Shown: positions 10,565-56,366 of the stretch, piece after piece
How the letters are laid out: the number at the start of each line of letters is the position of its first letter
How positions within the stretch are numbered: position 1 is the stretch's first letter
DNA from: a virus
Length of the DNA stretch: 64,000 nucleotides
IMG/VR virus record: IMGVR_UViG_3300031715_000003
Location: 30,225-94,224 of that record
Direction: 5' to 3' (one strand)
The notes under the pieces: model-generated
Told to the model about the DNA's origin: nothing
Database searches by the model: none
What the model saw: only the letters and a program-made list of their open reading frames with translations
Position numbers and translations under genes: made by a program

Positions 10565-10887
10565 GTCCCAAAGAATCAACTCCCCTGATGGAGGCGTGGG
10601 CCAAAGAACTGGCGCGCCAGATGCTGGAGCCACGCGATGGCGACTCTTCCGAATCCGTTCTCCTACGAGTCGCGATCGCGCTCGTACAGGCTCGAGCAAA
10701 AGAAGCGCGGCATCTGGCCGGCGCATTCACCATCAAGAGCACCGACCCACATAATCCCCTCTGGGAATTTCACCGCTCCCTCGCGCGGCACCTAACGGAC
10801 CGCGAGCATCTACTGGAGCAGTTCGCCCTGGACATGGCTGGCTTTAAAGAGGAGACGGCGATCGAACTCCCCGGAATGCTTCAATAA
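10561..10887 (+). CDS. Hypothetical protein
   Basis: ATGA coupling, GAGG SD. Confidence 0.6.
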   Translation: MSPKESTPLMEAWAKELARQMLEPRDGDSSESVLLRVAIALVQARAKEARHLAGAFTIKSTDPHNPLWEFHRSLARHLTDREHLLEQFALDMAGFKEETAIELPGMLQ

Positions 10888-10905
10888 CAGACATAATTTT
10901 CTGCC

Positions 10906-10935
10906 TTGACTTTGTAGGGTATTCCGCCGTAAGAT
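10906..10935 (+). promoter_or_regulatory. Promoter of orphan pentamer-array RNA G
   Basis: TTGACT-N18-TAAGAT directly before array. Confidence 0.7.
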
Positions 10936-11056
10936 GGCCTTGCATCTCTCGTCGGGTCTGCTCCTGGCATGTCATCACGCAGCGCTACACGGCAACGCGA
11001 CGCAACGCAAGGAAATCGCACTGGGGGATAACAAACCAGAAATCGAACTCCCCCAG
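10936..11056 (+). ncRNA. Orphan pentamer-array RNA G (15 units) plus 3' hairpin
   Basis: ggcct tgcat ctctc gtcgg gtctg ctcct ggcat gtcat cacgc agcgc tacac ggcaa cgcga cgcaa cgcaa gg; C at position 3 in all; CTGGGGGA...TCCCCCAG hairpin. Confidence 0.75.
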
Positions 11057-11104
11057 GGCTAAATGGTTCAGTGATTCCGATAAAATGCAAGCAGGGAGAA
11101 CACC

Positions 11105-20723: not shown

Positions 20724-20762
20724 TGGGGGGAGTACGGCGACAGACGTTCTCCCCCCGTTTTT
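20724..20762. terminator. Hairpin built from two copies of the dispersed motif; ends terL and RNA H
   Basis: GGGGGGAGTACG...CGTTCTCCCCCC-GTTTTT. Confidence 0.6.
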
Positions 20763-20844
20763 CCTTGCGTTGCGATGCTATGCGCCGACGAGATTTGCGG
20801 AGACGAGATACGCCAGGCTCCGACGAGCGCCGACATGCCGTGAC
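20763..20844 (-). ncRNA. Orphan pentamer-array RNA H (16 units)
   Basis: gtcac ggcat gtcgg cgctc gtcgg agcct ggcgt atctc gtctc cgcaa atctc gtcgg cgcat agcat cgcaa cgcaa gg; TGgTATAGT extended -10 at 20854-20862. Confidence 0.75.
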
Positions 20845-20896
20845 TTCCTTACGACTATACCAAGATTATGGTATCTTCTGAAGCAGGAGATTCCTG

Positions 20897-22396: not shown

Positions 22397-22614
22397 GCAG
22401 CAAGCCATCCGAGGGTACGATTGAATCTCCCCCCACAGCGCAGCGCCGGGCCGCGTTCAACACGGAGATGGGAATCCAGAACCGGCGAGTCACGGGGGTG
22501 ACACGGAATCTCTTGCGCGCCTACCAGCAGTCGCCCGGGAGGTTCCTACCCAAGACCAAGGCCCTGGACGTGCTGGCCAATATGCGGAAGCCCGGCGAGA
22601 AGGGGGCGGTATGA
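22384..22614 (+). CDS. Small basic hypothetical protein
   Basis: AGGAG SD. Confidence 0.6.
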   Translation: MAKLSSKPSEGTIESPPTAQRRAAFNTEMGIQNRRVTGVTRNLLRAYQQSPGRFLPKTKALDVLANMRKPGEKGAV

Positions 22615-23260
22615 GGCTTGTCGGCCTGTACGTGCGCGCGCATCGTACTGACAGAATCATGCTTAATCCGACAGGGCGAGGTCTCTACCGTCAGTTCCGC
22701 ATCGGGTCGAACCAGAACATCGATTGGTTTGAACGTCGCCATCCCAAGGCATTCGTTTTCCCTGACAGGTGGCACTGGAGGGGAGCACGCTCTTGAAGCA
22801 CAAGGAGTTGTACTTGCATTCACACCGATGGGTGAAGCATTCTGGGAGTAGAACGCACTCCTATTGGGTATCGCCGCACAACGGCAAGATTTACATCAGG
22901 GCGTTCGCGGTCCAGATCCAACGTGGTTACGACAAGAGGGCCATTTGTGAATCGCTCAAAAAAGAAGCAATGAAACAAAAATCGGCGCCACCGTGTGCGG
23001 CGCAAACAGAACCGCCAAAAGATGTGTCTGCCCCAGCGGCCGAAGGGGCGACTCTAGCGTGACGTGCCGCAAAACGGCGATATCGTTCTCATTAGGCAAT
23101 CGATAGGGGGCAAGACCCACTACTTCATGATCGATAACGTGAGCCCCGAGCGATATGATCGCACCGCCATCCAGGAGGAGGACGGAATCGCTAGGCTTGC
23201 CGTGCAGCACGCTTCTACAATTTCCGCCGACGTGATGGAGGAAGAAAGCAGGCTCCCCTA

Positions 23261-23721: not shown

Positions 23722-24805
23722 CACCAGCGAACCAACTGCAAGGAATCCCGGAAGGCGTGGAGGTCATCGACTACTTGCCAGCCAGCTCCGATGATTTCGA
23801 ACTCCTCCGCTTCTTCGATGACCCCATCATCATCAAGGGAGGGCGCCCGCACGCTTCGATCTCGATCCGGGTTAAGCCAGCGCAAGGCTATTGCTTCATC
23901 GAGGGGAAACTCCTCCAGCAGGCCGATATCAGGGCGCTCGGCACGACGACGCTGCAAACATATTCGGCCACGAAGGTTCTCCCTCCGACCGTCATTATGG
24001 CAACCATCAAGTTTTCGGTGGAGAACGCTATCGATCAGGCAGCGGTGGAGCAGGCGCTGGAAGGGTTGCGCCAAGTGCGGGGATTCAATTCGTTGGAGAA
24101 GGCATGAATATGGCAGAACTAAATCCGATTACTGACGTAGAACGTTATATCGACGCCAAACTTCAAGAAGGATTGACGGCGCTGGAAATCAAGATCAAGA
24201 TTGCGATCGCCGTGGAGGATGCGCGCATCGCGCTAGCCCGTGCCCTTCAACTCGATGATGATCCGAAGAACAAAGCCAACTACAGCGCGGCACTGACGGC
24301 TCTGGGGGAATAGTGGACTTCGAGCGATATCTCCTTAAAGCCCTCGGTGGTGCCGATGATGGATTGCTCTCCCTGAGGGTGGAACCGCTGGAAGACGGAT
24401 CTGGCCACTACGTTTACGTGGACCCACTGGGCGATAAGGAAGTCTTTATGCTGAAAGGCAACGAGCTGGTCCCATTCGGATTTTTCGATCCCGCCGAAAG
24501 ACCAAAAGCGTTCTCCCCCGATGAGTCACCGCTTCAAACGTCCTAAGCAGTTCCTCAATCAGGGAACTCCCCTGGCGAGACTGCGGAAGCACGTAGAGCA
24601 GATCCAGACTCAGGAGCAGTTCGACGCCTTCCTGGAAAAGCTCAGACCTGATATTCGTGCCGCCGGACTCCCCATGATCGAATCCTGGCTAAAGTTTGCT
24701 CCTCGAAACCTTGCTACCAAGGCCAACGCATCACGCGCTGCCGAGTTAGCCGTTAGCGAGGGGGAGTACGCTGTAGAAATTGAGACCGGGCCTTTATTCT
24801 CCTAA
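23718..24805 (+). CDS. Run of four coupled hypothetical ORFs (23718-24107, 24104-24313, 24313-24546, 24521-24805)
   Basis: Overlapping start/stop codons. Confidence 0.55.
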
Positions 24806-43126: not shown

Positions 43127-46100
43127 ATGGCCGACGCCGACACCCAAGGATGGTCGTGGGGGACAGCCGCACCACCACCGCAGGGCTCCCCTACGGAAGG
43201 ATGGTCATGGGGGACCTCGGCTCCTGAGCCGCCGACTCAGCCTCCAGCCACTAGGACAGTAAGACGGTTCGGACAGCCGCCGCAGCAAGTGCCAATTGGG
43301 CAACCAGCACCAGAAGATCAGGCACCCGCCGGTCCACCATTGAAGGCATGGAACTGGGATGTGATTCGGGCCTATCCCACGGTCATCGGCAGCATGGTGA
43401 ACTCTCTGCTGCAGACTCCCGTAATCCCCAAAGTCGCCATCTCGGCACCGACTACCGCTGAAGCCCTACAGGCCGCGTCCCGCGCACCTGGCGCGCCCGC
43501 TATTCTGCAACATCCCATCGTGCAGCGCGGTCTGGACATTGCGGCTGGCGCATCGCGGTGGGCGTTGGAGTTTGGCCGCCAGATGACGGCTCCCGCCAAC
43601 ATCGGGATGATGTTCGGCACCGAAGGCGTGGGACTCCTGCCGGGAGCGCTCTCCAAGATAAGCCAGTACCTGCCGCGCGCCATCTCAGGAGTGTTCAGTT
43701 GGCAGATGCTCAAGGGAGCCTATGATCAGGTCCCAGCGGTCAAGCAAGCGATCGACAAGGGAGATTACGCTGGTGCCGCATCCACCATCACGAGTATCGG
43801 ACTTCAGGGGCTGATGGGGGCGGCCGGTGCGCTCCATTTGGCATTCGATACCACGGGGAGATTCGCGCGATCGCTTGAGGAGCACAATGCCAACGCGGAA
43901 GTTGCGCTGCAAAAGGAAGCTCAGCAGCAAACTCCCGTGGGCCAAGGGGAGGGCACTCCAGTAGAGGGGCTGAACCGCCCAATGTCGGTCCGGACCGCCA
44001 CGCTTGGCCCCGATGGTTCTCCCTCAAGCTACGACGTAATCGATCCCGATACGGGAGAAGTGCTACATGAAGGGGATTACCCATCCGTAGCCAATTTCAT
44101 AAGGCAGTACCAAGCGCAGTCGATAGAAGGCGATATCGATAAGGCGGCAGAGCAAGGCTGGAGCTTTCCAGAAGAGCCGCCATCGTCACCAGAAGCACCC
44201 GCCCCTCCGGGAGAGGAGGTGATCCCTCAGGCACAAGCGGCAGGGGCGGGACCACAACAGGAGGTTCCCAGTGTCAGTGTGGGTGAAGGTCGAGGGGCTG
44301 AACAGCCAGCAACGGTGGGAGGAGGCGAAGCAGGAGTTGAAGGGGGCGCACCTGGAGGTGAACCACCCGTACCTGTACGGGGAGTTCCGCCACAGGGACC
44401 AAGCGGACTTGGCAGTGCTCAGCCTCAATCTGCTGCCGGGGGTACGGGCGAGCGTGCTGGAGCAGTGGCGGGATCTACCGGATCTGCGGAAGATGTAGTG
44501 ACGGGCGAAACCGACCTCCCCCTGGATACTCAAGGGGAACGTGACGCCAAGACCGATGCGAAGAAGGTTGCGGACGTCGACGAGGTCAACACCAGCCCGA
44601 AGCAACGCGGAGAGCAAACTGGTGCAGCGGTAGGGGAAGTCGCTGGTGTCAAACCACAACCTGACGAAGCACTTGCTCCGTGGAATCTGGGGCCAGAGAT
44701 TCAGGGGAGGCCGCAAACAGAGGTCAAGGCCCTGATGGACGACTACATCGTGAAGCGTCCTGATGAGGCCCCTCCTGGAGGGGAATCGTTCAACGATTTC
44801 AGCCAGCGATTCATCGGCGGCATCCAGCAGCAGATGGCGGATTACCAACCCGGACAGAAAATCCTCAACATCACGCACTCGATTGGAATCCACACGGCGC
44901 TGGCATGGAGCGAAAACGGTTCTCCCCAGGATAGATCGATCGACAATCAAGCGATGCTGGACCGGACCCACATGGACCCCGGATCGTTGTGGCGAATGAA
45001 TCCCAAAACGGGGGTCATGACGGAAGCAAAGAACGATGCCAAGCCGGGGATCTACTTTCAGCGGCACGCCGATACTGCATGGGACAATCTGAAGCCGGGG
45101 GAGGCCGTTCCTAACGCGGCAGATGCTGGAGCACCAAATCCAGAAGTAGCGCAGGAACCGCCCGCTACGCTTCCGGGGAAGGAGGAGGTTTCCTCAGTTA
45201 CGGCCCCTGTTCCCTCAGTTACGGCAGCAGTTCTCTCAGTACCTCCCCAAGAGCGTCCTCCCCTGCCCGACAGGATCATGTCAGCAATGCGGGCCCTGGA
45301 GCCGACGCCGGGAGTTCCAGTTTCGATGGAGCGGCTGCGTGCGGCACTCCCCGATGTTGGCAAGCCGGATTTCGATAGCGCGATGCTGCAATTGCGGCAG
45401 AACCAGCAAATCTACCTGCACCCGCATGACAGCCCAATGCGTCTTCCCCCAGAACAGCGCGCAACATTGGTGCCGAGCGCGGGTACGAACCCCAACAACT
45501 TGGATGAGCACTATGTTGCGGCAAGCGAAAGGGGGAGTACGCCAGCGGCAGCGGCGGGAAGAACTTCCATTGGGAGGACGACTCCCGCAAAAGGAACCCC
45601 GGAACGCGAGCAGATCGAATCTGAGTACGACCGTCTGCGGAAGGCCATCGACGAACAAACCCCAATAGTGGAGGGTCTTCAAGCCAAATACGATAAAGCC
45701 GGATACGGGACAAAAACGCGCGAGGCGGCGGGAAGGAAATTGGAGGTCGCCAAGGATAAGCTGGATGGTCTATATGCGGAACTAAATCCGATAACGAAGC
45801 GCTCCTACCGCGCCATGTTGGAGGATGCCGTGGAGTCCGATAACCCAATCCTCCGTCAAGCCGCAGGACTTAAGCTCGACGAGGAACTGGGAAGACGAAC
45901 CGGCGACAGATACAGCACGGTTGAAAAAACGCTAACCACTGAACTGGAGCCAATCGCCAGGGCGGCAGCAGTGAGAGTTGAGGACGGACGCGCCTATCTT
46001 TCTCCGCAACAGGAAGAGCAGGCGATCCGCAATGCTGCGGTATCAACCGCCAGGAATTATCTCAGTTTCCCGCTGACTGCTGAAGAGGACATCCCCAAGA

Positions 46101-49100
46101 GAATGGAGGGCCACGTTAGAGGAGAGCGACTCCAGATATTTCGAAACGAAGCACAGGAAGAGATTTCGGCTATCGACAATTTGATCCGAGAGGAAGGTCT
46201 CCAGCGATCGCGCGTTCCCAACGTGCGGGACATGTACGACTTTGAACAGATCAGCAAGGCCGTGGAGAACGAGCGCAAGGTCCTCGCAGACCGACAGGAA
46301 GAAAAGCGACTCATAGAAGAGCAGGATAAAGCGGCGTCCATCAGTCTCGCCGAGAGGCTGGAGCCGATTGGCGACTTGAAGCCAACCGCCAGAACCAAGG
46401 GGATCTGGAACGGAAATGTCATCCTGGGCAACAGTCCATTCGTCACCGATGGCACCATGATGATGCCGATCAGCGCCGTTCAGGGTCCTAAATCCATGGC
46501 CGGTCTTCCTCGAAAGGCTTCCGCATTGGCTGAAGCGGCTAAGACTCCCAGCGCTACGCCGGAGCAAGCGACGACCATTTGGGAAAGGTCCACCGGCGCA
46601 GATTTAAAGCCAGTTCAATTCCTCGGGGCGGACAGGAGTAACAAGACGGTAGGGAGCAAGATGCCAGCGTTCTTCGTGAATGCTGATGGCAACATTGTCA
46701 CCGTGGATGCCAACAAACTGGCATTTATAAAAAGCGCAATAGGGGCCGATGACATCAAGGCGTCCACGACATCCACGCGCGCGGCATCTCCGCTTGTTCT
46801 CTTCAGGGACGGCAAGCCATCCGCCCTACTAATGCCCTGGAAGAATCCAGCGATCACCCCAGATTTAGCGATCGCCAGAAGCGGACCAGCAGCAGATAAA
46901 ATTCCTGCTGGCTTGACTCCCGAAAAAGCAGGTGAGCGCGGTGCCGTCGCCATCACGCCGCCGAACGTGCGGGCCGCACTACAGACCGCTGGCTCGCCCG
47001 CAGCGCAGATGCAGCAATTCCTGGGAGCTCGCAACAATGCCGCCCGTGCCCTCCTCTCGACATTGAATGCGACCGGCATCGACAGCCGACTGGGGGAGAA
47101 GATCCGGACCTTCACCACGGGAGAACGGGATTACCGCGTAGCCGAAACCAATCAACTGCGAGATGTGCTACGGCAGCAACTCCCCGATCCACTCGACCAG
47201 GAAGCCTTGACGCTGCTGCGCGACTTCAAGAATCGGCCCAATGAACTCGCGGAGTTTCGCAACGGAACGCATCCCGAATTCCAAGCGCTCTCCCCCCAGC
47301 AACAACAAGTAGCGTCCCAAAAGATCATGCAGATGCGACCCGTGATCGACAGGGTGCTAAATCCCTCGCCAGCACTCCTGGCGGCTGACCAGGAACTCAC
47401 CAACTACTTCCGTGCCCATCTGGCGGAAGGGAAACAACTGGGTTTCCTGGACTCGAGCATCCCGGACGAGGAGTACATCACGCACGTGTTTGCGCCAGAT
47501 CAGAGAACGGCAGGATCCTGGATCGGGAGACTTTCGCGCGGGCGCCTCGGACCGCGAAAGTTCCGATACAACCTTCAGCGCTCCTACCCGACCGTTTTGC
47601 ATGCGGTACTCCACGGCGTCGAACCCAAGACGATCAACGCGCTGGACGCGCTGGGCGTCTATGGCGAGAAGTACGCCACCACCGCTGCCTACCACTTCCT
47701 CACGACGCTGCTGCGCAGCACGGCAACCGGAAAGTGGGGGACGCAGCCGATGCAACGCGCCGGCCAGATCCCGGCCGATTGGGTTCCGCTGGCACCCGAT
47801 CAGCCACTGTTCCAGCAAAAGGTGCCGTACCTGGATCAGGCCGGGGAGGCGAGGCTGGCATCGCGCTCCCTATATGTGCCGCCCGATGTGGCCAAGGCGA
47901 TGCACGCCATCACGGACCCCAATTTCATGGAGCGGTATGCGTGGTGGCAAAACGTTCGGCAGGCTCAACAGGTTGTCAAGATCGTTGAGTTGGGATTCTC
48001 TATATTTCACATGAAGGCGCTGGCGTTGAGCGCACAGGCCAATATGGGACCCGGGGCAGCCGCTGCTGCCCTTGTGGCCGATAAGGATAGTCAAGACTTC
48101 TTGGATGCCGAGAAGGCTTGGATGAGATTTGGGTTGACGACTCCCATTACTGGGAAGACGATTGAGATCTACAAGGCGCTACGGCCCACGTCTCTTCCGA
48201 CCGTCGGGGAAAAGATTCGGAACCTTCCCGGCATTAAGCAGGCAGACAAAGCCGCTGCGGCAATCTCCCACTTCACCTTTGGTGTCATGCAGCGCAAACT
48301 AAAGGTGATCGACGCCTCACTCAAATTCGCAGCCTGGTCCGATTCGCATCCCAACGCAACGGATAAAGAGACCGCAGAAGCGATGCGCCTGATCGCGAAG
48401 GAAATCAATGCCGTGTATGGCGGCCTCCATTGGGAGAACATGGGCGTGGGGAGAACGATAGTGGAGCTGTCGCGAGCGATATTTCTGGCCCCAGACTGGT
48501 TCTACTCCGACCTGGCGACGTGGAAATACGCTCTCCAGAAGGGTTTAACCGGCGATGCCGCGCGAGTCTACATGCTGTGGGGTGCCGTTTCGGCGCTGTT
48601 AGGAACAGCGGCTCTGAGTTGGCTCTGGTCCAGGAAGCTTTCGAAAGACCCCACGCGCGTTATTCTCGGGAAGGACCGCGAGGGCCACGACGTGGATGAC
48701 AATCTGTTCTTCGTGGGTGCCATTGGAGACTTATCAACGCTGATTCACAACGTCGCTAGGTATGGGGCGCTTGTGGGGACAGCCCGCACGTTCGCATCCA
48801 AGTTTGGGCCCGTCACCAAAACCGCCGTGGCGCTCTCCAGCAATAAAAGCGCGCGTGGTGGCAGCGACATCATCCCCAGAACCATCAGCAAGAGCGTCTA
48901 TACCGGCCAGCCGTTGCCGAGAACTGGTCCGCGCGGTGGCCGGTCGCGTCCTCCCACATGGGGCGAGAAGAACGTGCTCGGGGCAGAGGAAGCGGCCGGC
49001 AACACTCTCCCTGTACCATTTACCGTGACGACGATTGCGAAGATGCTGGCCAATCCCAAGGAGCACTACCGACTGAGCCAGTACTTCGAAGCGCTCATCA

Positions 49101-49132
49101 GCGGGCGTCAGCCACGGGCGGTGAATCAATGA
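43127..49132 (+). CDS. Giant ejection/polyvalent protein (gp16 position) with permuted histidine-phosphatase domain
   Basis: 2001 aa; TSP..R, GGES, ITHS and IYFQRHAD motifs; FLAPDW C-terminal region. Confidence 0.8.
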   Translation: MADADTQGWSWGTAAPPPQGSPTEGWSWGTSAPEPPTQPPATRTVRRFGQPPQQVPIGQPAPEDQAPAGPPLKAWNWDVIRAYPTVIGSMVNSLLQTPVIPKVAISAPTTAEALQAASRAPGAPAILQHPIVQRGLDIAAGASRWALEFGRQMTAPANIGMMFGTEGVGLLPGALSKISQYLPRAISGVFSWQMLKGAYDQVPAVKQAIDKGDYAGAASTITSIGLQGLMGAAGALHLAFDTTGRFARSLEEHNANAEVALQKEAQQQTPVGQGEGTPVEGLNRPMSVRTATLGPDGSPSSYDVIDPDTGEVLHEGDYPSVANFIRQYQAQSIEGDIDKAAEQGWSFPEEPPSSPEAPAPPGEEVIPQAQAAGAGPQQEVPSVSVGEGRGAEQPATVGGGEAGVEGGAPGGEPPVPVRGVPPQGPSGLGSAQPQSAAGGTGERAGAVAGSTGSAEDVVTGETDLPLDTQGERDAKTDAKKVADVDEVNTSPKQRGEQTGAAVGEVAGVKPQPDEALAPWNLGPEIQGRPQTEVKALMDDYIVKRPDEAPPGGESFNDFSQRFIGGIQQQMADYQPGQKILNITHSIGIHTALAWSENGSPQDRSIDNQAMLDRTHMDPGSLWRMNPKTGVMTEAKNDAKPGIYFQRHADTAWDNLKPGEAVPNAADAGAPNPEVAQEPPATLPGKEEVSSVTAPVPSVTAAVLSVPPQERPPLPDRIMSAMRALEPTPGVPVSMERLRAALPDVGKPDFDSAMLQLRQNQQIYLHPHDSPMRLPPEQRATLVPSAGTNPNNLDEHYVAASERGSTPAAAAGRTSIGRTTPAKGTPEREQIESEYDRLRKAIDEQTPIVEGLQAKYDKAGYGTKTREAAGRKLEVAKDKLDGLYAELNPITKRSYRAMLEDAVESDNPILRQAAGLKLDEELGRRTGDRYSTVEKTLTTELEPIARAAAVRVEDGRAYLSPQQEEQAIRNAAVSTARNYLSFPLTAEEDIPKRMEGHVRGERLQIFRNEAQEEISAIDNLIREEGLQRSRVPNVRDMYDFEQISKAVENERKVLADRQEEKRLIEEQDKAASISLAERLEPIGDLKPTARTKGIWNGNVILGNSPFVTDGTMMMPISAVQGPKSMAGLPRKASALAEAAKTPSATPEQATTIWERSTGADLKPVQFLGADRSNKTVGSKMPAFFVNADGNIVTVDANKLAFIKSAIGADDIKASTTSTRAASPLVLFRDGKPSALLMPWKNPAITPDLAIARSGPAADKIPAGLTPEKAGERGAVAITPPNVRAALQTAGSPAAQMQQFLGARNNAARALLSTLNATGIDSRLGEKIRTFTTGERDYRVAETNQLRDVLRQQLPDPLDQEALTLLRDFKNRPNELAEFRNGTHPEFQALSPQQQQVASQKIMQMRPVIDRVLNPSPALLAADQELTNYFRAHLAEGKQLGFLDSSIPDEEYITHVFAPDQRTAGSWIGRLSRGRLGPRKFRYNLQRSYPTVLHAVLHGVEPKTINALDALGVYGEKYATTAAYHFLTTLLRSTATGKWGTQPMQRAGQIPADWVPLAPDQPLFQQKVPYLDQAGEARLASRSLYVPPDVAKAMHAITDPNFMERYAWWQNVRQAQQVVKIVELGFSIFHMKALALSAQANMGPGAAAAALVADKDSQDFLDAEKAWMRFGLTTPITGKTIEIYKALRPTSLPTVGEKIRNLPGIKQADKAAAAISHFTFGVMQRKLKVIDASLKFAAWSDSHPNATDKETAEAMRLIAKEINAVYGGLHWENMGVGRTIVELSRAIFLAPDWFYSDLATWKYALQKGLTGDAARVYMLWGAVSALLGTAALSWLWSRKLSKDPTRVILGKDREGHDVDDNLFFVGAIGDLSTLIHNVARYGALVGTARTFASKFGPVTKTAVALSSNKSARGGSDIIPRTISKSVYTGQPLPRTGPRGGRSRPPTWGEKNVLGAEEAAGNTLPVPFTVTTIAKMLANPKEHYRLSQYFEALISGRQPRAVNQ

Positions 49133-50137: not shown

Positions 50138-50147
50138 ATAAAACTCC

Positions 50148-50184
50148 TTGACTTAACCGTAACGCCGTGTTACCGTAGAACGGT
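50148..50184 (+). promoter_or_regulatory. Promoter and operator of the Cas7-like module
   Basis: TTGACT-N17-TACCGT; ACCGT-AGA-ACGGT palindrome over -10 and start; leaderless ATG at 50185. Confidence 0.65.
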
Positions 50185-50313
50185 ATGAAGGTGAAGGCCA
50201 GTACGGTCAAGGTTAAACTGGACGGGATAAAGTGCGGACACTGTGGGCATGCCTGGAAACCGCGCACAGAAAGTGGCGCGAAGAAGTGCCCACGATGCCA
50301 GCACAAGCTTTGA
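50185..50313 (+). CDS. 42-aa zinc-ribbon protein (not in ORF track)
   Basis: KCGHCGHAWKPR...KKCPRCQ. Confidence 0.75.
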   Translation: MKVKASTVKVKLDGIKCGHCGHAWKPRTESGAKKCPRCQHKL

Positions 50314-50314
50314 G

Positions 50315-50404
50315 GGCGACGCAACGCGTGTCAACGCGCTACAATGCGCGGCGGCTCACGTCTGCGTAAGGCGAGTCTGGTCTGCTCCCGGCATCGCAAC
50401 GTAA
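50315..50404 (+). ncRNA. Pentamer array A (18 units)
   Basis: ggcga cgcaa cgcgt gtcaa ... ggcat cgcaa cgtaa then AGGAG SD; pyrimidine at position 3 in all, C in 16. Confidence 0.8.
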
Positions 50405-50416
50405 AGGAGAAATGGA

Positions 50417-50980
50417 ATGATTTCGGCAAAATGCCATCTTGAATCGATTTCGCAGTACTCCCAGAGCAAAGCTCATCGAGTTCCGCGCAATCAAAATGAA
50501 TCTTATGACCAATGGGAAGAGCGGACGTGGCGCGAACGCCTGCATGTGTCCGAGGATGGCCACATTTTTATTCCTCCCACTGCCATCAAAAACGCGCTCT
50601 CGGAGGCGGCTCAGTACCTCTCGATGAAGATTCCGGGGAAGCGCAACGCCACCTACACCAAGCGCTTCGTCTCGGGGGTTCTGGTGGCCGATCCCATAAC
50701 GCTGCCGATCACGGTCGATGAGGTCAAGTGCGAATGGCTTTTCCTGCCGGCCGATGGGAAGCGCGGTTCTGGAACGCGCGTCAACAAATGCCTGCCCCTG
50801 ATTGATCGGTGGTCGGGCGATGTACAGGTATTCATTCTGGACGACGAGATCAGCAAGGAGGTCTTCGAGAAGCACATGGATGTTGCGGGATCCTTGATCG
50901 GAGTTGGCCGGTTCCGCCCCTCGAAGAATGGATACTACGGTCGGTTCAAAGCTACCGTTAGGTCCTGGGAGTCGCAGTGA
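50417..50980 (+). CDS. Stand-alone Cas7/RAMP-like protein
   Basis: N-terminal strand CHLESISQY, FIPPTAIKNALSEAA (cf. RAMP IPgSslKGalR), C-terminal Gly loop GSLIGVGRFRPSKNGYYGRF; AAGGAG SD. Confidence 0.7.
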   Translation: MISAKCHLESISQYSQSKAHRVPRNQNESYDQWEERTWRERLHVSEDGHIFIPPTAIKNALSEAAQYLSMKIPGKRNATYTKRFVSGVLVADPITLPITVDEVKCEWLFLPADGKRGSGTRVNKCLPLIDRWSGDVQVFILDDEISKEVFEKHMDVAGSLIGVGRFRPSKNGYYGRFKATVRSWESQ

Positions 50981-50986
50981 AATGAT

Positions 50987-51134
50987 CTCGCGGCACGTCT
51001 TGGCGAGTCGCCTTCTGGCCAGTCCAGGCGCATCATGCTCTCGTCGTGGCCTGTCACCGCCTGTCGCTCAGCTAGGCACGTCTTGTCATGGCAGGTCTGT
51101 TCGCGTCTAGTCTTGGCACCGCATCGCATCTCAA
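50987..51134 (+). ncRNA. Pentamer array B (about 29 units, two phase slips)
   Basis: ggcac gtctt ggcga gtcgc ... ggcac cgcat cgcat ctcaa GGAG. Confidence 0.8.
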
Positions 51135-51144
51135 GGAGAATAAA

Positions 51145-51348
51145 ATGGCAAAGGAATCTAAGATATCCAAACTCATCGAGGAACTAGCAGAAGAAATGGC
51201 AGAGGATCTGGTGAAGAGTTTGACGATGGAGTTTAAAAAGATTTCGCCGGGAGCGAACAGGCTGGCAAATGGAAAGCGTAGGAGCACGCCAGAGGCTTCT
51301 GGCCCAAAGAAACCTGGTTGGAGCATAAGGGGTACGAAGAGGAAATGA
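51145..51348 (+). CDS. 67-aa hypothetical protein in Cas7-like module
   Basis: AAGGAGAATAAAATG; acidic helix plus basic tail. Confidence 0.7.
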   Translation: MAKESKISKLIEELAEEMAEDLVKSLTMEFKKISPGANRLANGKRRSTPEASGPKKPGWSIRGTKRK

Positions 51349-51349
51349 T

Positions 51350-51439
51350 TTCATGGCTCGTCCGGGCCCGGCATGGCAACGCTTGTCCTGGCAGGACTCG
51401 GCTCGTCTAGTCGTATCGTGGTATGGCACGGCATCGCAA
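51350..51439 (+). ncRNA. Pentamer array C (18 units)
   Basis: ttcat ggctc gtccg ggccc ggcat ggcaa cgctt gtcct ggcag gactc ggctc gtcta gtcgt atcgt ggtat ggcac ggcat cgcaa. Confidence 0.85.
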
Positions 51440-51449
51440 GGAGAATAAA

Positions 51450-51971
51450 ATGGCAGTAGAAACTAAAAACGGTAAAGATCCAAAGCGTCCTATTGGTACG
51501 ATCTCGATCGACACACGGGTCGTTTACGATCGTCTCAAGGCGACGCAGATCGGGGAGACCGTACTGTATGCCGATTTGACCAAGCTAATCGGTCGCGATA
51601 TCCGCGGCGTGGCTTCATGGGTACTCCAGAGCGCACGGCGCAAAGCCCTGCACGACGATCAACTGGTGTTCGGATCGGTTCGCAACGAGGGAGTACGGCG
51701 TCTGGCAGACACGGAGATCGTCGACACCGGGCACGACGCCATCACTCAGATCCACAGGCGGTCGGTTCGGTCCCTCAGGAAGCTGGCCTCAGTCCAGGAT
51801 TTCAGCGCTCTCCCCCCGCAAGATAAAGTGCGACACAATGCCTACGCTTCGCTGCTCTCCATATCGGCGCATGCCACCCGGGATAAGCAGGTCAAGAAGA
51901 TCGAACAAGCAGTGGAAAAGTCTCAGGCAGCTCTGGCGGTCCAGAGGACGCTGGACGCGCTCAAGGAATAA
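51450..51971 (+). CDS. Basic 173-aa protein, winged-helix-like N-terminus, partner of Cas7-like gene
   Basis: GETVLYADLTKLIGRD...SARR...SVRNEGVRRL; same 16-nt RBS as 51145. Confidence 0.75.
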   Translation: MAVETKNGKDPKRPIGTISIDTRVVYDRLKATQIGETVLYADLTKLIGRDIRGVASWVLQSARRKALHDDQLVFGSVRNEGVRRLADTEIVDTGHDAITQIHRRSVRSLRKLASVQDFSALPPQDKVRHNAYASLLSISAHATRDKQVKKIEQAVEKSQAALAVQRTLDALKE

Positions 51972-51974
51972 CAT

Positions 51975-52149
51975 GGCTCGTCGTGGCGAGTCTTCGCCTA
52001 GCAGGTCTTGTCATGACGAATCACCGCACGTCCATGCGAGTCCAGTCCGCGCTCCTCGATGCATATCGTGGCGATTCGTGGCGGCTCCTAGCATCGCCTG
52101 TCGGTGCACGGCATCTCCCGGCGAGTCCTGTCCCGGCAACGCAACGCAA
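51975..52149 (+). ncRNA. Pentamer array D (35 units)
   Basis: C at position 3 in 35/35 units; GTC 10, GGC 7, CGC 6; ends ggcaa cgcaa cgcaa gg. Confidence 0.85.
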
Positions 52150-52177
52150 GGTATTAATGTGGTCTTTTATAACGTTC

Positions 52178-52277
52178 TTCTCGGCGTGTCTGGTCAGAGC
52201 ACGGCAGGTCTGCGCCCGGCATTGCTCGTCTGCGCGCCACGTGGCGTATCAACTCCGCTCTAAGCGCGGCATCGCAA
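52178..52277 (+). ncRNA. Pentamer array E (20 units)
   Basis: C at position 3 in 20/20; ends ggcat cgcaa gg; AT-rich linkers both sides. Confidence 0.85.
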
Positions 52278-52322
52278 GGTTCTTTATCTCCCCAAAACTA
52301 CAGTAAAATGGTCTACATATTC

Positions 52323-52399
52323 AGCGTGGCGCTGGGCCCGTCATGGCTTAGCGAGACAACGCAAGGCTGGTCTGGTCTCGGCAACGCCGGGCAACGCAT
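52323..52399 (+). ncRNA. Pentamer array F (2 + 13 units)
   Basis: ggccc gtcat ggctt agcga gacaa cgcaa ggctg gtctg gtctc ggcaa cgccg ggcaa cgcat. Confidence 0.75.
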
Positions 52400-52516: not shown

Positions 52517-54943
52517 TTGAGGAGAGCACTAACCATCATTGCGCTCCTGCTGGGTGCGGCAGTGCACGCCGCCGCCCAGTACGGCCTCGCGCCAGCCTTT
52601 GATCAACAATTTTTCAGCAACACCGGCTTGCCGCTCATCGGCGGCCAAATCTACACCTGCTACGCCGGAACCTCCTGCCCCGGCAATCCGCTGGCCAGCT
52701 ATACCGATTCCACCGGCGCAGTCCAGAACTCCAATCCCGTGGTCCTCGATGGATTCGGCCGCGCCTCCATCTGGCTAACGTGCAGTCTCGCGTACAAGCT
52801 CGTTCTTCAAGATGCCATGGGGAATACGCTCGTCACCTCCGACAACCAAACTTGCGGATCCGGTGGTGGCGGAGGCGGTGGAACCAACTACTGGACTCTG
52901 TCGGGGAGCACGATCTACAACAACAACGGTGGTGGCACGGAACCTCCGGGCGGCGCAGGCAACGTTCAGGTAGGGGCGGATTTCATCGCGGGCGGAAACC
53001 TGTGGGCCGGACAATCGCTCCGGATTGCCTCCAGTACCGCGCCTAACCACTTCATATTGCGGGCCAACAGCGGCATGGCTAGTGATGTGACGTGGCGGTG
53101 GGCCCAGCAGGACGCTATGGGGTGCTTGGCCAGCGACGGAATGGGCAACCTCAGCTTTCAGGCGTGCGGGGCAGGCTTGACCCCTGGAGGCTCAAATGGA
53201 AACGTGCAGTTCAACAGCAACGGGTATTTTGGGGGGAATTCCAACTTCAACTGGAACAATACGAGCCAACTCCTTACTGTCGTTGCGCAGACCAGTAGCG
53301 TAGCGGGGATTGCGGTTGGAACCGGCTACGTCCAGGCCGATGCGGGATTCCTAGCCACGCCGTCTACAGCGACGCAATACGATGTGGTCAACGCTCCTGG
53401 CGGCGGGATGTACGCGCTGTCGTTTACGGCCGCCAATTACATCCAAAGCGGCTTCGGAGCAACTAACCCGACAATGACGCCCGGCGACTCACCGCATCCC
53501 GGCGCACTCTATTGGAACACGACCTCTGGGGCGGAGCAGGTCTTCAATGGAACTGCATGGGTGTCGCTAGGGGGCGGTAGCGGATCCGCTGGAGGCTCCA
53601 ACACCGATGTGCAATTCAACAGTTCTGGAGCCCTCGGGGGAAGTGGAAATTTCACATGGAACAACGGTAGTCGGCTCCTCACCGTAACGTCGGCATCCTC
53701 TGGCGTGGCGGGGATCGCGGTCGGAACTGGCTACATTCAGGCGGATGCGGGCTTCCTTGCGACGCCCGGAACCGCCATGGCCTATGATTCGATTCAAGCC
53801 CCTGGCGGTGGATTCTATGGGAAATCCTTCACGGCCCTGAATTATATCCAGACTGGAAACGGCACTGCCATTCCGACGCTTACCTCTGGAGATAGCCCGA
53901 ACGCAGGGTGGATGTACTACAACACGACGAACGCGTGCGAGGAACTCTATAGCGGGACCGCATGGAGTTGTCTGGGGATGGCTGGCTCCAGTTCCCCGGG
54001 GGCTCCCAACAGTTCCGTGCAGTTCAATAACTCTGGTGCCTTAGGAGGTTCGGCCAACCTGATGTGGAACAACGGCAGCCAACTCCTGACCGTTACGGCA
54101 GCGTCTTCCTCAGTCGCTGGAATCGCGGTTGCTACCGGATTTGTTCAGGCAGATGAAGGATTTATCGCAACCTCCGGAACGGGCACCCAGTACAACGTCA
54201 TTCAGGCTCCTGGCGGAGGAATGGCCGCGAAGTCTTTCACGGCCGCGAACTACATCCAGACGGGGAGCGGCACCGTAAACCCCACCGCCACCACGGGCGA
54301 TACCTTCAACCCGGGCGCGCTTTACTACAATACAGCGAACGCCTGCGAAACCCTCTACAACGGGTCGGCTTGGGCCTGCATAGGGGGAGGATCAGGGGGA
54401 GGGCCATTCCCGTCGACATACTTTATCCCCGCAGCCAACTGCGTAACCGGGGCTCCTGGGTCTGGATGGTCGATAAGCTCCGGAGGATCGGCTTCCTGCA
54501 GGTCTGGTGTCCATAATGTAGGCGGCTACATCGCCATCAGCGATACGTCCTCAACGTTTGCCAGTTTTCAAGTAGAGATCCCGCTTGATTGGGACACGGG
54601 AGTCAACCCCTACATTCGGTTCCAGCTCGCTTCGACCGATACGGCGAGCGGCCACACCATCATCCCGCAGATTCAGGTCGCCTGCTACAAGGGAGACGGG
54701 ACCACTACGGATGATGTAGTCGCGAACGCAGCGCACTCCTCGAGCACCGTTACCCTGAACGGGAACGCGAACGCATTCTGGGCGACTTCCAACGTACAGA
54801 TGAACTCCACCGATGTTACGGGTTGTGTCGGTGGCTCCCTCATGCAGGTCACGGTCGGTCGCGCTACCGACACGGCGACCAGCGCGGAATTCTACGGCGC
54901 CACCATTACGTTCCCGCGATCGATCATGGTGCAACCGGACTGA
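52517..54943 (+). CDS. Tail fibre/spike with virion-attachment domain, three internal repeats and Sec signal peptide
   Basis: Leader ending AAA-Q; QFF..TG.PL.GG.IYT..AGT...PLASYTD.TG...SNPVVLD..GRASIWL; 3 x GGSN..VQFN...GIAV.TG..QAD.GF. Confidence 0.85.
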   Translation: MRRALTIIALLLGAAVHAAAQYGLAPAFDQQFFSNTGLPLIGGQIYTCYAGTSCPGNPLASYTDSTGAVQNSNPVVLDGFGRASIWLTCSLAYKLVLQDAMGNTLVTSDNQTCGSGGGGGGGTNYWTLSGSTIYNNNGGGTEPPGGAGNVQVGADFIAGGNLWAGQSLRIASSTAPNHFILRANSGMASDVTWRWAQQDAMGCLASDGMGNLSFQACGAGLTPGGSNGNVQFNSNGYFGGNSNFNWNNTSQLLTVVAQTSSVAGIAVGTGYVQADAGFLATPSTATQYDVVNAPGGGMYALSFTAANYIQSGFGATNPTMTPGDSPHPGALYWNTTSGAEQVFNGTAWVSLGGGSGSAGGSNTDVQFNSSGALGGSGNFTWNNGSRLLTVTSASSGVAGIAVGTGYIQADAGFLATPGTAMAYDSIQAPGGGFYGKSFTALNYIQTGNGTAIPTLTSGDSPNAGWMYYNTTNACEELYSGTAWSCLGMAGSSSPGAPNSSVQFNNSGALGGSANLMWNNGSQLLTVTAASSSVAGIAVATGFVQADEGFIATSGTGTQYNVIQAPGGGMAAKSFTAANYIQTGSGTVNPTATTGDTFNPGALYYNTANACETLYNGSAWACIGGGSGGGPFPSTYFIPAANCVTGAPGSGWSISSGGSASCRSGVHNVGGYIAISDTSSTFASFQVEIPLDWDTGVNPYIRFQLASTDTASGHTIIPQIQVACYKGDGTTTDDVVANAAHSSSTVTLNGNANAFWATSNVQMNSTDVTGCVGGSLMQVTVGRATDTATSAEFYGATITFPRSIMVQPD

Positions 54944-55997: not shown

Positions 55998-56366
55998 TTG
56001 AAACAGTTATTGTTCGTTTTGATGGCCGTGGCGGGATTCTCCCAGGAGTCTGGGGAGACCGCTCCAAAGCCAGAGGCCAAAAAGGAATACCTACTGACCA
56101 AAGAGGAATCGCTAACGGTGAAGCTCGATATCGCGCAGATCCAACTCCTCAATGAGAAATACAAGATTGATGACTACAACAAGGAAATAAAGCCCTGGAG
56201 CGCGGAACAGGAAGATGTCATCACGAAAGCCTGCATGAAGGTAGGGGTCGCCAAGGATAAGATCCGGAGCGACTGTGGGGTCTCGTTGGGGGCGAAGGAT
56301 CAGGCCGGAAACGAACTCCCCGCGAAGGTGTGGAAGATCGAGAAGGTGACGGCTCCGGCCAAATAA
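55998..56366 (+). CDS. Secreted helical protein (possible fibre chaperone)
   Basis: Leader ending GFS-Q; one Cys pair. Confidence 0.7.
   Translation: MKQLLFVLMAVAGFSQESGETAPKPEAKKEYLLTKEESLTVKLDIAQIQLLNEKYKIDDYNKEIKPWSAEQEDVITKACMKVGVAKDKIRSDCGVSLGAKDQAGNELPAKVWKIEKVTAPAK

What the first reader, a model, noticed from the sequence alone, without database searches (positions are those of the whole stretch)
50148..52399. Phage Cas7/RAMP-like protein interleaved with six 5-nt-period arrays: candidate RNA-guided system with a non-contiguous code
Seen: a self-contained module between the ejection and tail genes, ordered promoter, Zn-ribbon gene, array A, 187-aa gene, array B, 67-aa gene, array C, 173-aa gene, arrays D/E/F. 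Every intergenic space is a run of pentamers N-[G/T]-C-N-N. Position 3 is C in 35/35 units of array D and 20/20 of array E; the trinucleotide is mostly GGC, GTC or CGC; positions 4-5 are freely variable. Most arrays end in GCA(T/A)CGCAAGG or a close variant, and D/E/F are separated by AT-rich linkers. Established: FIPPTAIKNAL and a C-terminal Gly loop (GVGRFRP...GYYGRF) are hallmarks of the RAMP (Cas7/Csm3) RRM fold, which polymerises on RNA with fixed periodicity. No cas1/cas3/cas5/cas6 or repeat-spacer array is present. Inference: each array is a guide RNA; one protomer grips each constant trinucleotide and displays the variable dinucleotide for pairing. From memory this resembles recently reported VIPR-type viral systems (GGY/NN repeats); I cannot verify that here, and the NKC consensus would be a variant.
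Basis: partly seen in the sequence, partly recalled or inferred. Interest (0 to 1): 0.97.

Follow-up and report, generated by a model that had tools for sequence, protein, structure and literature searches.

The report
Phage VIPR system, G-K-C guides
This module of an uncultured 94-kb phage is a genuine VIPR system (a small Cas7-like protein plus guide RNAs built of five-letter repeats), a family first published in 2026; it is a divergent member rather than a new kind, and one guide spells the conserved motif of the system's own accessory-gene family.

Summary
The 187-aa ORF has a confident Cas7/Csm3 fold and is homologous to the solved SUSP1 Vipr protein (hhalign 96.5%). Ten pentamer arrays comprise 165 units, with C at position 3 in 162 and G/T at position 2 in 157. 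Eight arrays interleave with the genes and two are orphan RNA genes at 10.9 kb and 20.8 kb. In 103 of 104 related loci, period-5 arrays flank the vipr homolog.

Differences from the SUSP1 reference:
- Only 26% of units are strict GGY.
- The 3' tail stays in pentamer register (GCAWCGCAAGG).
- The accessory 173-aa winged-helix protein is not detectably related to vap1.

New here:
- Across the clade the constant trinucleotide (GGC, CGC, GAC, GTC) co-varies with Vipr residues 126 and 165, which align to SUSP1's guanine contacts. This is suggestive only.
- Guide C encodes, under the published 1-nt-skip rule, the conserved motif of the vap family. The phage's own vap matches 20/24.
- Guide F's best match is also in the next gene downstream.

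Expression and binding could not be tested. This scan has noted VIPR-like systems in at least 320 other genomes.

The parts
50146..50177 (+). Promoter-like site ahead of the module (CCTTGACTT with TTGACT as -35; the -10 is uncertain)
   Evidence: Read. The 9-mer occurs only here and at orphan G's promoter. The consensus scanner did not call it.
50185..50313 (+). 42-aa zinc-ribbon-like ORF (CxxC..CxxC), a lineage-specific extra
   Evidence: Sub-threshold Pfam zinc-ribbon hits. Homologs lie beside vipr in only 2 of 104 loci.
50315..50399 (+). Array A: 17 G-K-C-NN units, candidate vrRNA upstream of vipr
50417..50980 (+). vipr: 187-aa RAMP/Cas7-like protein, homolog of SUSP1 Vipr
   Evidence: phrog_4652; more than 1,000 50%-identity clusters of relatives
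50987..51134 (+). Array B: three register segments (50987-51036, 51038-51067, 51070-51134; 10+6+13 units), probably more than one vrRNA
51145..51348 (+). 67-aa ORF with a helical N-terminus and basic C-terminus; no relatives found
   Evidence: No Pfam or PHROG hit. No homolog in 104 loci.
51350..51439 (+). Array C: 18 units. Units 1-12/13 are a guide that spells the vap family motif; units 13-18 grade into the tail.
51450..51971 (+). vap-like accessory gene: 173 aa, N-terminal winged helix (residues 18-85) plus helical bundle
   Evidence: Homologs beside vipr in 63 of 104 loci. AF2 pLDDT 91. PurR winged helix Z 8.1, ScpB Z 7.3. Not detectably related to SUSP1 vap1.
51567..51601 (-). Best match of guide C: vap codons 40-51, 20/24 informative bases, skip base on the wobble position
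51970..52149 (+). Array D: 36 units in one register, probably two or three head-to-tail vrRNAs
52178..52277 (+). Array E: 20 units, preceded by an AT-rich linker
52330..52399 (+). Array F: 14 units with an internal tail-like motif at 52356-52366
52598..52626 (-). Best match of guide F: codons 28-37 of the downstream 808-aa tail-fibre-like gene, 17/20, skip base on the wobble position (suggestive only)
10904..11058 (+). Orphan vrRNA gene G: TTGACT-18-TAAGAT promoter, 15 units (10936-11010), same tail, 8-bp G/C hairpin (11018-11058)
20725..20870 (-). Orphan vrRNA gene H on the minus strand: 16 units (20765-20844), same tail, G/C hairpin (20725-20756)

Best explanation
The module is a VIPR (Viral Interference Programmable Repeat) system of a tailed phage, of a type other than SUSP1's type II. 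By homology with the solved SUSP1 complex, the 187-aa Vipr should polymerise along each array transcript, one protomer per five nucleotides. It would bury the constant G-K-C trinucleotide and display the variable NN dinucleotides, which read double-stranded DNA as NN-x-NN (one base skipped) and silence transcription there. The 173-aa winged-helix protein is the clade's accessory (vap-like) partner. Ten arrays supply the guides: eight interleaved with the genes and two stand-alone RNA genes (G and H) with their own promoters and 3' hairpins. At least one guide (C) is aimed at the conserved winged-helix-coding motif of the vap gene family. My preferred reading, at roughly even odds against cis autoregulation, is that it attacks the vap of rival VIPR-carrying phages, while four mismatches in 24 spare the phage's own copy. 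Shown here: the fold, the homology, the array anatomy, the co-occurrence of arrays and gene, and the guide-to-motif match. Inferred: transcription, RNP assembly, DNA binding and silencing. The confidence given is for membership of the VIPR family and the mechanism by homology, not for the reading of guide C.
For: - Fold: AF2 pLDDT 93.4. Csm3 Z 11.9, with 34 chains at Z>=8 that are mostly Cas7-family RAMPs. Foldseek E 9e-8 to type VII Cas7.
- Homology to SUSP1 Vipr: phmmer E 0.015, profile E 2.8e-8, hhalign 96.5% over 132 columns.
- The residue aligned to SUSP1's Y3 contact R179 (our R167) is invariant in all 104 relatives, matching the near-invariant C at position 3.
- Arrays: 165 units, 98% with C3. 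103 of 104 related loci have period-5 arrays abutting the gene.
- The tail motif is enriched in the window and also closes arrays in 10 other loci.
- vap-like gene: beside vipr in 63 of 104 loci, with a winged-helix fold.
- Viral context: terminase, portal and major head protein; IMG/VR virus record 98% complete, no Cas1; no CRISPR-like array and no second vipr.
- Guide C, own genome: 20/24 on the phage's own vap under the 1-nt skip, against 16 and 17 under 0- and 2-nt skips. 1 of 300 shuffles reaches 20.
- Guide C, family level: mean 17.2/26 over 57 vap homologs against 7.2 for shuffled guides, with a maximum mean of 14.1 in 2,000 shuffles. The homologous codons are the locus-wide best match in 41 of 57 loci.
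- Guide C follows the family's commonest dinucleotide at three codons (39, 41, 43) where the phage's own gene differs.
- Precedent: guides aimed at rivals' VIPR genes, with lower self-match scores (paper 10.64898/2026.10.15.759431).
Against: - No RNA or binding data could be obtained, so expression, processing and vrRNA boundaries are unknown.
- Only 26% of units are strict GGY. The residues aligned to SUSP1's guanine contacts differ: D177 aligns to R165 and R138 to L126. Scaffold recognition must therefore differ in detail.
- No pseudoknot-like tail is predicted after the operon arrays.
- The accessory protein is not detectably homologous to vap1 (hhalign 5.7%).
- Against the rival-targeting reading of guide C: no better target than the phage's own gene was found in IMG/VR or the metagenome set. 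Over units 1-12 the own gene scores highest of the family members scored. Guide F also matches the adjacent own gene best.
- Seven of nine guides tested have no target above chance.
Confidence: 0.88

Rival explanations
1. Guides C and F act in cis on the phage's own genes. The Vipr-vrRNA complex sits on the 5' coding region of the next gene downstream (vap, and the tail-fibre-like gene). There it acts as a feedback brake or a transcriptional roadblock that insulates the module from the late genes. The match to relatives is then a by-product of motif conservation.
For: Each guide's best match in the whole 94-kb genome lies less than 200 nt downstream of its own array. Both are on the minus strand and in wobble register, and 0 of 170 other 3-kb windows reach either score. 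The own vap gives the best 12-unit score found (20/24), with the five 5'-most units perfect. For guide F the own gene scores 17/20 against 16/20 in the nearest relative. No better external target was found.
Against: None of 57 other loci has an array matching its own vap site, so this is not a conserved design. The published surveys of the P. fulva clade, type III and type V vrRNAs found no self-target at 80% or more. Four mismatches may abolish binding, since perturbing NN base pairing abolished silencing in the published reporter assay. The guide sides with the family consensus rather than the own gene at codons 39, 41 and 43. Guide F's score alone is reached by 9 of 300 shuffles.
Confidence: 0.35
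2. The arrays are mainly cis-regulatory leaders rather than trans-acting guides. Vipr binds the pentamer tracts in its own polycistronic mRNA, and because the tail runs into the Shine-Dalgarno sequence (..CGCAAGGAG..ATG), it controls translation of the following genes.
For: Arrays A, B and C abut the start codons. The tails of B and C are fused to AAGGAG and to an identical stretch up to ATGGCA. No terminator or structure separates array from gene.
Against: Arrays D-F and orphans G and H precede no such start codon, yet keep the same units and tail. G and H are stand-alone transcription units with a promoter and a hairpin. The NN positions use all 16 dinucleotides, as expected of guides. Guide C carries target information. 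In SUSP1, arrays of the same layout are processed to roughly 100-nt guide RNAs.
Confidence: 0.08
3. A degenerate or minimal CRISPR-Cas remnant (a lone Cas7 with decayed repeats) with no function of its own.
For: The Cas7/Csm3 fold.
Against: There is no CRISPR-type repeat-spacer array and no Cas1 in a 98%-complete genome. The closest sequence relative in the PDB is Vipr, not any Cas7. The gene plus arrays are conserved as a unit in 103 of 104 loci and in more than 1,000 protein clusters.
Confidence: 0.02

Closest known systems
VIPR type II, Escherichia phage SUSP1 (Vipr, vap1, four vrRNAs; PDB 36pp; bioRxiv 10.64898/2026.04.26.720920 and .720927)
   Same: Homologous Vipr protein of similar size (187 against 195 aa; hhalign 96.5%). 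The G-loop is conserved (GVGRFRP against GVGDWRP). There is one vrRNA array upstream of vipr and several downstream of the accessory gene. Units are 5 nt, with three constant and two variable bases. The system is phage-encoded with no cas genes. The 1-nt skip rule fits the one guide with a recognisable target.
   Different: SUSP1 units are almost all GGT-NN, set between a non-repeat leader and a roughly 35-nt structured tail. Here the units are G-K-C-NN (26% strict GGY) and the tail stays in pentamer register (GCAWCGCAAGG). Arrays abut or interleave with the genes, and one array runs 36 units. The residues aligned to SUSP1's G1 and G2 contacts differ (D177 to R165, R138 to L126). The accessory protein is not detectably related to vap1. 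There are two extra small ORFs.
Other VIPR types (I, III-VII) with 'a related consensus' and staggered arrays (same preprint, figs S17, S18; Methods list NNNGG, YNNNG, NNNNG)
   Same: A non-GGY consensus and long uninterrupted arrays are already reported. CGC-type arrays in this clade fit YNNNG. Accessory proteins with winged-helix-like domains are described for types II, VI and VII. A clade member is in NCBI nr (MBE0568909.1), so the published PSI-BLAST survey probably includes this clade.
   Different: The variants named in the text keep a G. Here and in related loci the anchor is C at position 3, with position 2 being G, T or A (GTC and GAC classes). I could not read the supplementary figures or tables, so I cannot assign a type or say whether this consensus is shown there.
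Anti-VIPR and solo vrRNAs (bioRxiv 10.64898/2026.10.15.759431)
   Same: Stand-alone vrRNA genes away from the vipr locus (orphans G and H). A guide whose predicted target is a gene of the VIPR system itself, in codon register, with an imperfect self-match.
   Different: The published cases are mostly on VIPR-null phages or satellites, and they target vipr or other vrRNAs. Here a VIPR-positive phage carries the guide inside its own operon. The target is the accessory gene, and the phage's own copy is the best 12-unit match found (83%).
Class 1 CRISPR backbone proteins (Cas7: Csm3, Cmr4, type VII Cas7)
   Same: RRM core, glycine-rich loop and thumb. The protein polymerises on a guide RNA with fixed periodicity (for Vipr).
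   Different: The period is 5 nt with three bases sequestered, rather than 6 nt with one flipped. There is no CRISPR array, no Cas5/Cas6/large subunit and no adaptation genes. Sequence similarity to Cas7 proteins is undetectable, and only Vipr is hit.

Membership tests
VIPR system | Vipr protein: a small stand-alone RAMP with RRM core, G-loop and thumb | tested here: met
   AF2 pLDDT 93.4. Csm3 Z 11.9, rmsd 2.6 over 146 residues. Foldseek E 9e-8. The G-loop GVGRFRP..GYYGRF is invariant in the family.
VIPR system | Sequence homology to an experimentally characterised Vipr (SUSP1, PDB 36pp) | tested here: met
   Profile E 2.8e-8. hhalign 96.5%, E 1e-9 over 132 columns.
VIPR system | Tandem 5-nt repeats flanking vipr, with a conserved trinucleotide alternating with a hypervariable NN | tested here: met
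   165 units, 162 with C3, 157 with K2, all 16 NN used. Arrays flank the homolog in 103 of 104 loci.
VIPR system | The conserved trinucleotide is GGY (canonical consensus; the paper allows 'a related consensus') | tested here: not met
   43 of 165 units are strict GGY. GTC (28) is as common as GGC (26), and CGC accounts for 15. The relaxed criterion of a related consensus is met.
VIPR system | An invariable 3' tail after the repeat tract | tested here: met
   GCAWCGCAAGG closes 8 arrays here and also arrays in 10 other loci. It differs in form from SUSP1's tail. A hairpin follows only in orphans G and H.
VIPR system | An adjacent vap accessory gene with a predicted DNA-interacting fold | tested here: met
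   Homologs of the 173-aa protein lie beside vipr in 63 of 104 loci. Winged helix at residues 18-85.
VIPR system | No CRISPR array or cas genes; the locus sits in a virus or provirus | tested here: met
   No Cas1, in a virus record 98% complete. No regularly spaced repeats. Phage structural genes are present. Only Cas1 was searched among the cas families.
VIPR system | Targets follow the 1-nt skip rule (NN-x-NN) | tested here: inconclusive
   Guide C matches vap only under the 1-nt skip: 20/24 against 16 and 17 for skips of 0 and 2. The family-level signal is strong. This rests on one guide, and no binding assay was possible.
VIPR system | vrRNAs are expressed as roughly 100-nt RNAs and co-purify with Vipr; the RNP binds dsDNA and represses transcription | not testable with these tools
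This needs small-RNA sequencing, pull-down and reporter assays.
VIPR type II (SUSP1 / P. fulva clade) | GGY-NN units, a pseudoknot tail and a vap1 accessory | tested here: not met
   Direct comparison with the SUSP1 locus. vap1 against the vap-like profile gives hhalign 5.7%. No structure is predicted after the operon tails.
CRISPR-Cas class 1 | A repeat-spacer array plus cas1/cas2 and effector subunits other than Cas7 | tested here: not met
   Only the Cas7-like fold is shared.

The most novel reading that the evidence does not exclude
In this large Vipr clade the scaffold is anchored on C at position 3. Positions 1 and 2 are read by two Vipr residues, 126 and 165, that align to SUSP1's guanine contacts. 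Changes at these residues (F to Y with G1 to C1; R to F/M/V/S/T with G2 to A2 or, in one locus, T2) retune which repeats a protein accepts. That would be a natural protein-RNA 'scaffold code' able to insulate co-infecting VIPR systems from one another. In addition, this phage would use two guides in cis on its own adjacent genes (vap and a tail-fibre-like gene), so that VIPR serves as a self-regulatory circuit and not only as a weapon.
Probability: 0.25. Interest if true: 0.6.

Novelty: new member of a known kind. Interest (0 to 1): 0.38.

Why it matters
VIPR is a very recent class of RNA-guided DNA recognition, and only type II has been studied in depth. This locus adds a well-resolved example from a large clade known almost entirely from metagenomes: more than 1,000 protein clusters, with only one distant relative among deposited phage genomes. 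Its scaffold consensus, tail and accessory protein all differ from the SUSP1 reference. The co-variation between repeat class and two residues at the predicted guanine pockets gives testable rules for scaffold specificity, which would be useful for building orthogonal VIPR tools. The guide aimed at the vap motif, with an 83% match to the phage's own gene, is a concrete case for measuring how many mismatches VIPR tolerates. It could also show whether phages use VIPR on themselves.

Tried and rejected
- Exact 9-unit IMG/VR scans. Guide C gave one 19/24 hit in an unrelated 176-kb contig. Guide G gave one element seen three times, 18/18 in the seeded units but with no extension, in a low-GC unrelated phage. 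Guide H gave none. All are consistent with chance.
- Metagenome scans for guide C. Eleven units gave no hit. Nine units gave 13 hits, none in a vap or vipr homolog.
- Guides A, B, D, E, G and H have no match above shuffled nulls in the phage's own genome or in the 104 loci.
- Conserved autoregulation: none of 57 other loci has an array matching its own vap site, and none encodes any family member's site.
- The last units of array D (GA, CT, CC) spell the dispersed GAACTCCCC motif, but the match does not extend: 4.9/16 in the flanks against about 4 by chance.
- A shared array-start motif, CATGGCTCGTC, is exact only in C and D and is not above chance at 2 mismatches.
- The period-5 peak at 42.7 kb is not an array.
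- Rfam gave no hit, so there are no hammerhead-type spacers.
- vap1 homology is not supported.
- The co-variation test by independent contrasts had no power, since only one contrast lies on well-supported branches.
As a result the sample of origin and the arrays next to the closest relatives (73-80% identity) could not be examined.
It was redone from coordinates.
- The paper's supplements are not held, so the VIPR type could not be assigned.
Full report
**What is in the sequence**

Between 50146 and 52402 the plus strand carries, in order:
- a promoter-like site;
- a 42-aa CxxC..CxxC ORF;
- array A;
- a 187-aa ORF;
- array B;
- a 67-aa ORF;
- array C;
- a 173-aa ORF;
- arrays D, E and F.

A motif-agnostic period-5 autocorrelation scan flags 2% of the 64-kb window. 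Seven of the eight flagged stretches are arrays and one (42.7 kb) is a false positive. Laid out in register, the arrays hold 165 units of the form [G>C,A,T][G/T]C-NN:

| Feature | Count |
|---|---|
| C at position 3 | 162/165 (36/36 in D, 20/20 in E) |
| G or T at position 2 | 157/165 |
| G at position 1 | 90/165 |
| Strict GGY units | 43/165 |

All 16 dinucleotides occur at NN. Arrays end in GCAWCGCAAGG or a near variant: 12 copies at up to 1 mismatch against 3.3 expected, with 0 of 100 shuffles reaching 12. Two further arrays of the same build lie far from the module. G (10936-11010, +) follows a TTGACT-18-TAAGAT promoter. H (20765-20844, -) follows a -10-like GTATAGT, read by eye only. Each ends in the same tail followed by an 8-bp G/C hairpin. 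The remaining 30 kb of the genome has no arrays.

**What the protein is**

The 187-aa protein has no Pfam family and matches only PHROG 4652, of unknown function.
- Its best hit among PDB sequences is "SUSP1 Vipr protein" (36pp). The E-value is 0.015 for the single sequence and 2.8e-8 with a 36-sequence profile.
- hhalign against the SUSP1 gene taken from KT454805 gives 96.5% probability over 132 columns.
- The AlphaFold model (pLDDT 93.4) is a Cas7-type RAMP: Csm3 at Z 11.9, and type VII and type III Cas7 at the top of the Foldseek list.
- The family is very large: 1,198 clusters at 50% identity reach E<=1e-3. It is almost entirely metagenomic, and deposited phages hold one 28%-identical relative.

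**What VIPR is**

Three 2026 preprints define the family.
- A stand-alone RAMP (Vipr) polymerises one protomer per 5-nt unit on vrRNAs made of GGY/NN repeats plus a 3' tail.
- The GGY bases are buried, and the NN bases read dsDNA while skipping every third base.
- Binding silences transcription.
- Loci carry a vap accessory gene, lack cas genes and CRISPR arrays, and are mostly viral.
- Seven types exist, some with "a related consensus".

This locus meets the family-level criteria (see Membership tests). The genome is an IMG/VR virus record rated 98% complete. It encodes terminase, portal and major head protein, and it has one vipr, one vap-like gene, no Cas1 and no CRISPR-like array.

**Do arrays travel with the gene?**

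I fetched 80 IMG/VR loci and 24 MAG loci encoding relatives. Period-5 arrays are present in 103 of 104, almost always abutting the gene. The exception is cut off at the gene's end. The order array, vipr, array, small gene, array recurs. The 173-aa protein has homologs beside vipr in 63 loci. Its model (pLDDT 91) has an N-terminal winged helix (PurR Z 8.1, rmsd 2.2 over 66 residues; ScpB Z 7.3) and a helical bundle. It is therefore this clade's vap-like partner. It is not detectably related to SUSP1 vap1 (hhalign 5.7%). The 67-aa ORF has no relative, and the zinc-ribbon ORF has relatives in only two loci.

**How it differs from SUSP1**

I compared it directly with the SUSP1 locus.
- SUSP1 vrRNAs are 11-16 GGT-NN units between a non-repeat leader and a roughly 35-nt structured tail.
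- Here the units are G-K-C-NN and the tail is two to four in-register [C/G]GCA[A/T] units followed by GG.
- In arrays B and C that GG is part of the Shine-Dalgarno sequence of the next gene.
- No structure is predicted after the operon tails, and Rfam finds no ribozyme.
- Array D runs 36 units without a slip, which resembles the "staggered arrays" the paper mentions.

**A scaffold code?**

Across the 104 loci the constant trinucleotide differs by locus: GGC, CGC, GAC or GTC-rich. C at position 3 is the shared anchor. The cryo-EM paper names the SUSP1 contacts: G1 by H17 and D177, G2 by R138 and W178, and Y3 by R179 and others. In my alignments these map as follows:

| SUSP1 residue | This protein |
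|---|---|
| D177 | R165 |
| W178 | F166 |
| R179 | R167 |
| R138 | L126 |

R167 is invariant in all relatives, which fits the invariant C3. The alignment column with the highest mutual information with repeat class is residue 126:
- It is F in all 79 loci of the G-first classes.
- It is Y or M in all 14 loci with C-rich position 1.
- It is L only in this phage and its closest relative, where position 1 is relaxed.

Residue 165 is R except in 15 loci, and all of those have a non-G position 2. On the best tree these patterns reflect about 7-11 changes. Only one contrast lies on well-supported branches, so the association is suggestive and not proven. F126 and R165 are also present in the GTC-rich loci, so the G/T tolerance at position 2 remains unexplained.

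**Targets**

I applied the published scan, a gapless NN-x-NN match on both strands with shuffled-guide nulls.

*Guide C.* An earlier first-reader note had claimed that array C matches the adjacent gene, and I confirmed and extended this.
- Units 1-12 match the minus strand at 51567-51601 (vap codons 40-51, skip base on the wobble position) at 20/24. One of 300 shuffles reaches this anywhere in the genome. Skips of 0 or 2 nt give only 16 and 17.
- At the homologous codons of 57 vap homologs the guide averages 17.2/26. Shuffled guides average 7.2, and the highest mean in 2,000 shuffles is 14.1.
- In 41 of 57 loci those codons are the best match in the whole locus.
- Read as codons, the guide's ideal target encodes T-Y-[DE]-[DE]-L-[SR]-[KN]-[LF]-[IM]-G-R-[DE]-[IM], essentially the family consensus.
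- Within the 12-codon footprint the phage's own gene (YADLTKLIGRDI) differs at four bases. Two are at A41 and T44. Two are Leu codon-family differences (TTG where the guide expects CTN, and CTA where it expects TTR).
- No other locus has an array matching its own, or any, vap site. No better target exists in IMG/VR or the metagenome set.

*Guide F.* Its best match in the genome (17/20) is at codons 28-37 of the next gene, again on the minus strand and in wobble register. Its score alone is reached by 9 of 300 shuffles, and no other 3-kb window reaches it. The nearest relative scores 16/20.

*Other guides.* The remaining guides have no match above chance.

**Interpretation of guide C**

Two readings remain open.
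- Rival-targeting. The published precedent is guides aimed at rivals' VIPR genes, with lower self-match scores. The guide follows the family consensus at codons 39, 41 and 43, where the phage's own gene differs. The feature is not conserved across the clade.
- Cis autoregulation. The phage's own gene is the best 12-unit match known. The five 5'-most units are perfect. Guide F shows the same adjacency, which rival-targeting does not explain.

I put these at roughly 0.5 and 0.35. A later check recorded in this scan warns that hosts tolerate 80% matches, so an 83% match should not be assumed to be functional.

**Novelty and verdict**

The system belongs to a published family. A clade member is in NCBI nr, within reach of the paper's PSI-BLAST survey, and this scan has already logged VIPR-like loci in at least 320 genomes. 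I therefore rate it a new member of a known kind with moderate interest. The value added here is:
- the C-anchored G-K-C scaffold;
- the in-register tail;
- the distinct vap;
- the residue-repeat co-variation;
- the vap-directed guide.

Noticed in passing
whole genome; in the window e.g. 10864-10872, 11045-11053, 24564-24572, 56313-56321: The 9-mer GAACTCCCC occurs 21 times in the window (0.6 expected) and 30 times in the 94-kb genome, in both orientations and with unconserved flanks. Two copies bracket orphan G, one of them forming the 3' arm of its hairpin. Its function is unknown, and it is not an extended vrRNA target.
   Followed up: partly
window 10904-10912 and 50146-50154: CCTTGACTT occurs exactly twice in the window: at the VIPR module's promoter-like site and at orphan G's promoter. 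This hints that the two are co-regulated. 4 of 100 shuffles give two or more copies.
   Followed up: partly
window 51126-51150 and 51431-51455: Arrays B and C end in an identical stretch (CAAGGAGAATAAAATGGCA) that fuses the vrRNA tail to the Shine-Dalgarno sequence and start codon of the next gene. This looks like a duplicated cassette, and it could couple vrRNA processing or Vipr binding to translation.
   Followed up: partly
loci L001-L104 (e.g. L045, L063, L099 GAC; L027, L080 CGC; L035, L036, L073 GTC-rich): Within one Vipr clade the constant trinucleotide of the arrays differs by locus (GGC, CGC, GAC, GTC), while C at position 3 is kept. L094 is an outlier, with a T-rich position 2, Y126 and T165.
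   Followed up: partly
OR003939.1 (Phage DSL-LC04) 22450-22857, minus strand: This is the only relative of this Vipr in the deposited phage collection (28% identity, E 9e-4). It is annotated as a helix-turn-helix transcriptional regulator, which is probably a mis-annotation of a Vipr-like gene.
   Followed up: no
window 43127-49132: A 2,001-aa ORF just upstream of the module has no tblastn match in 50,697 deposited phage genomes. By position and size it may be an internal virion or ejection protein, but this was not examined.
   Followed up: no
window 51145-51348: The 67-aa ORF between arrays B and C (acidic helical N-terminus, basic C-terminus) has no homolog in any of the 104 related loci and no family hit. 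It may be a lineage-specific addition or not a real gene.
   Followed up: partly
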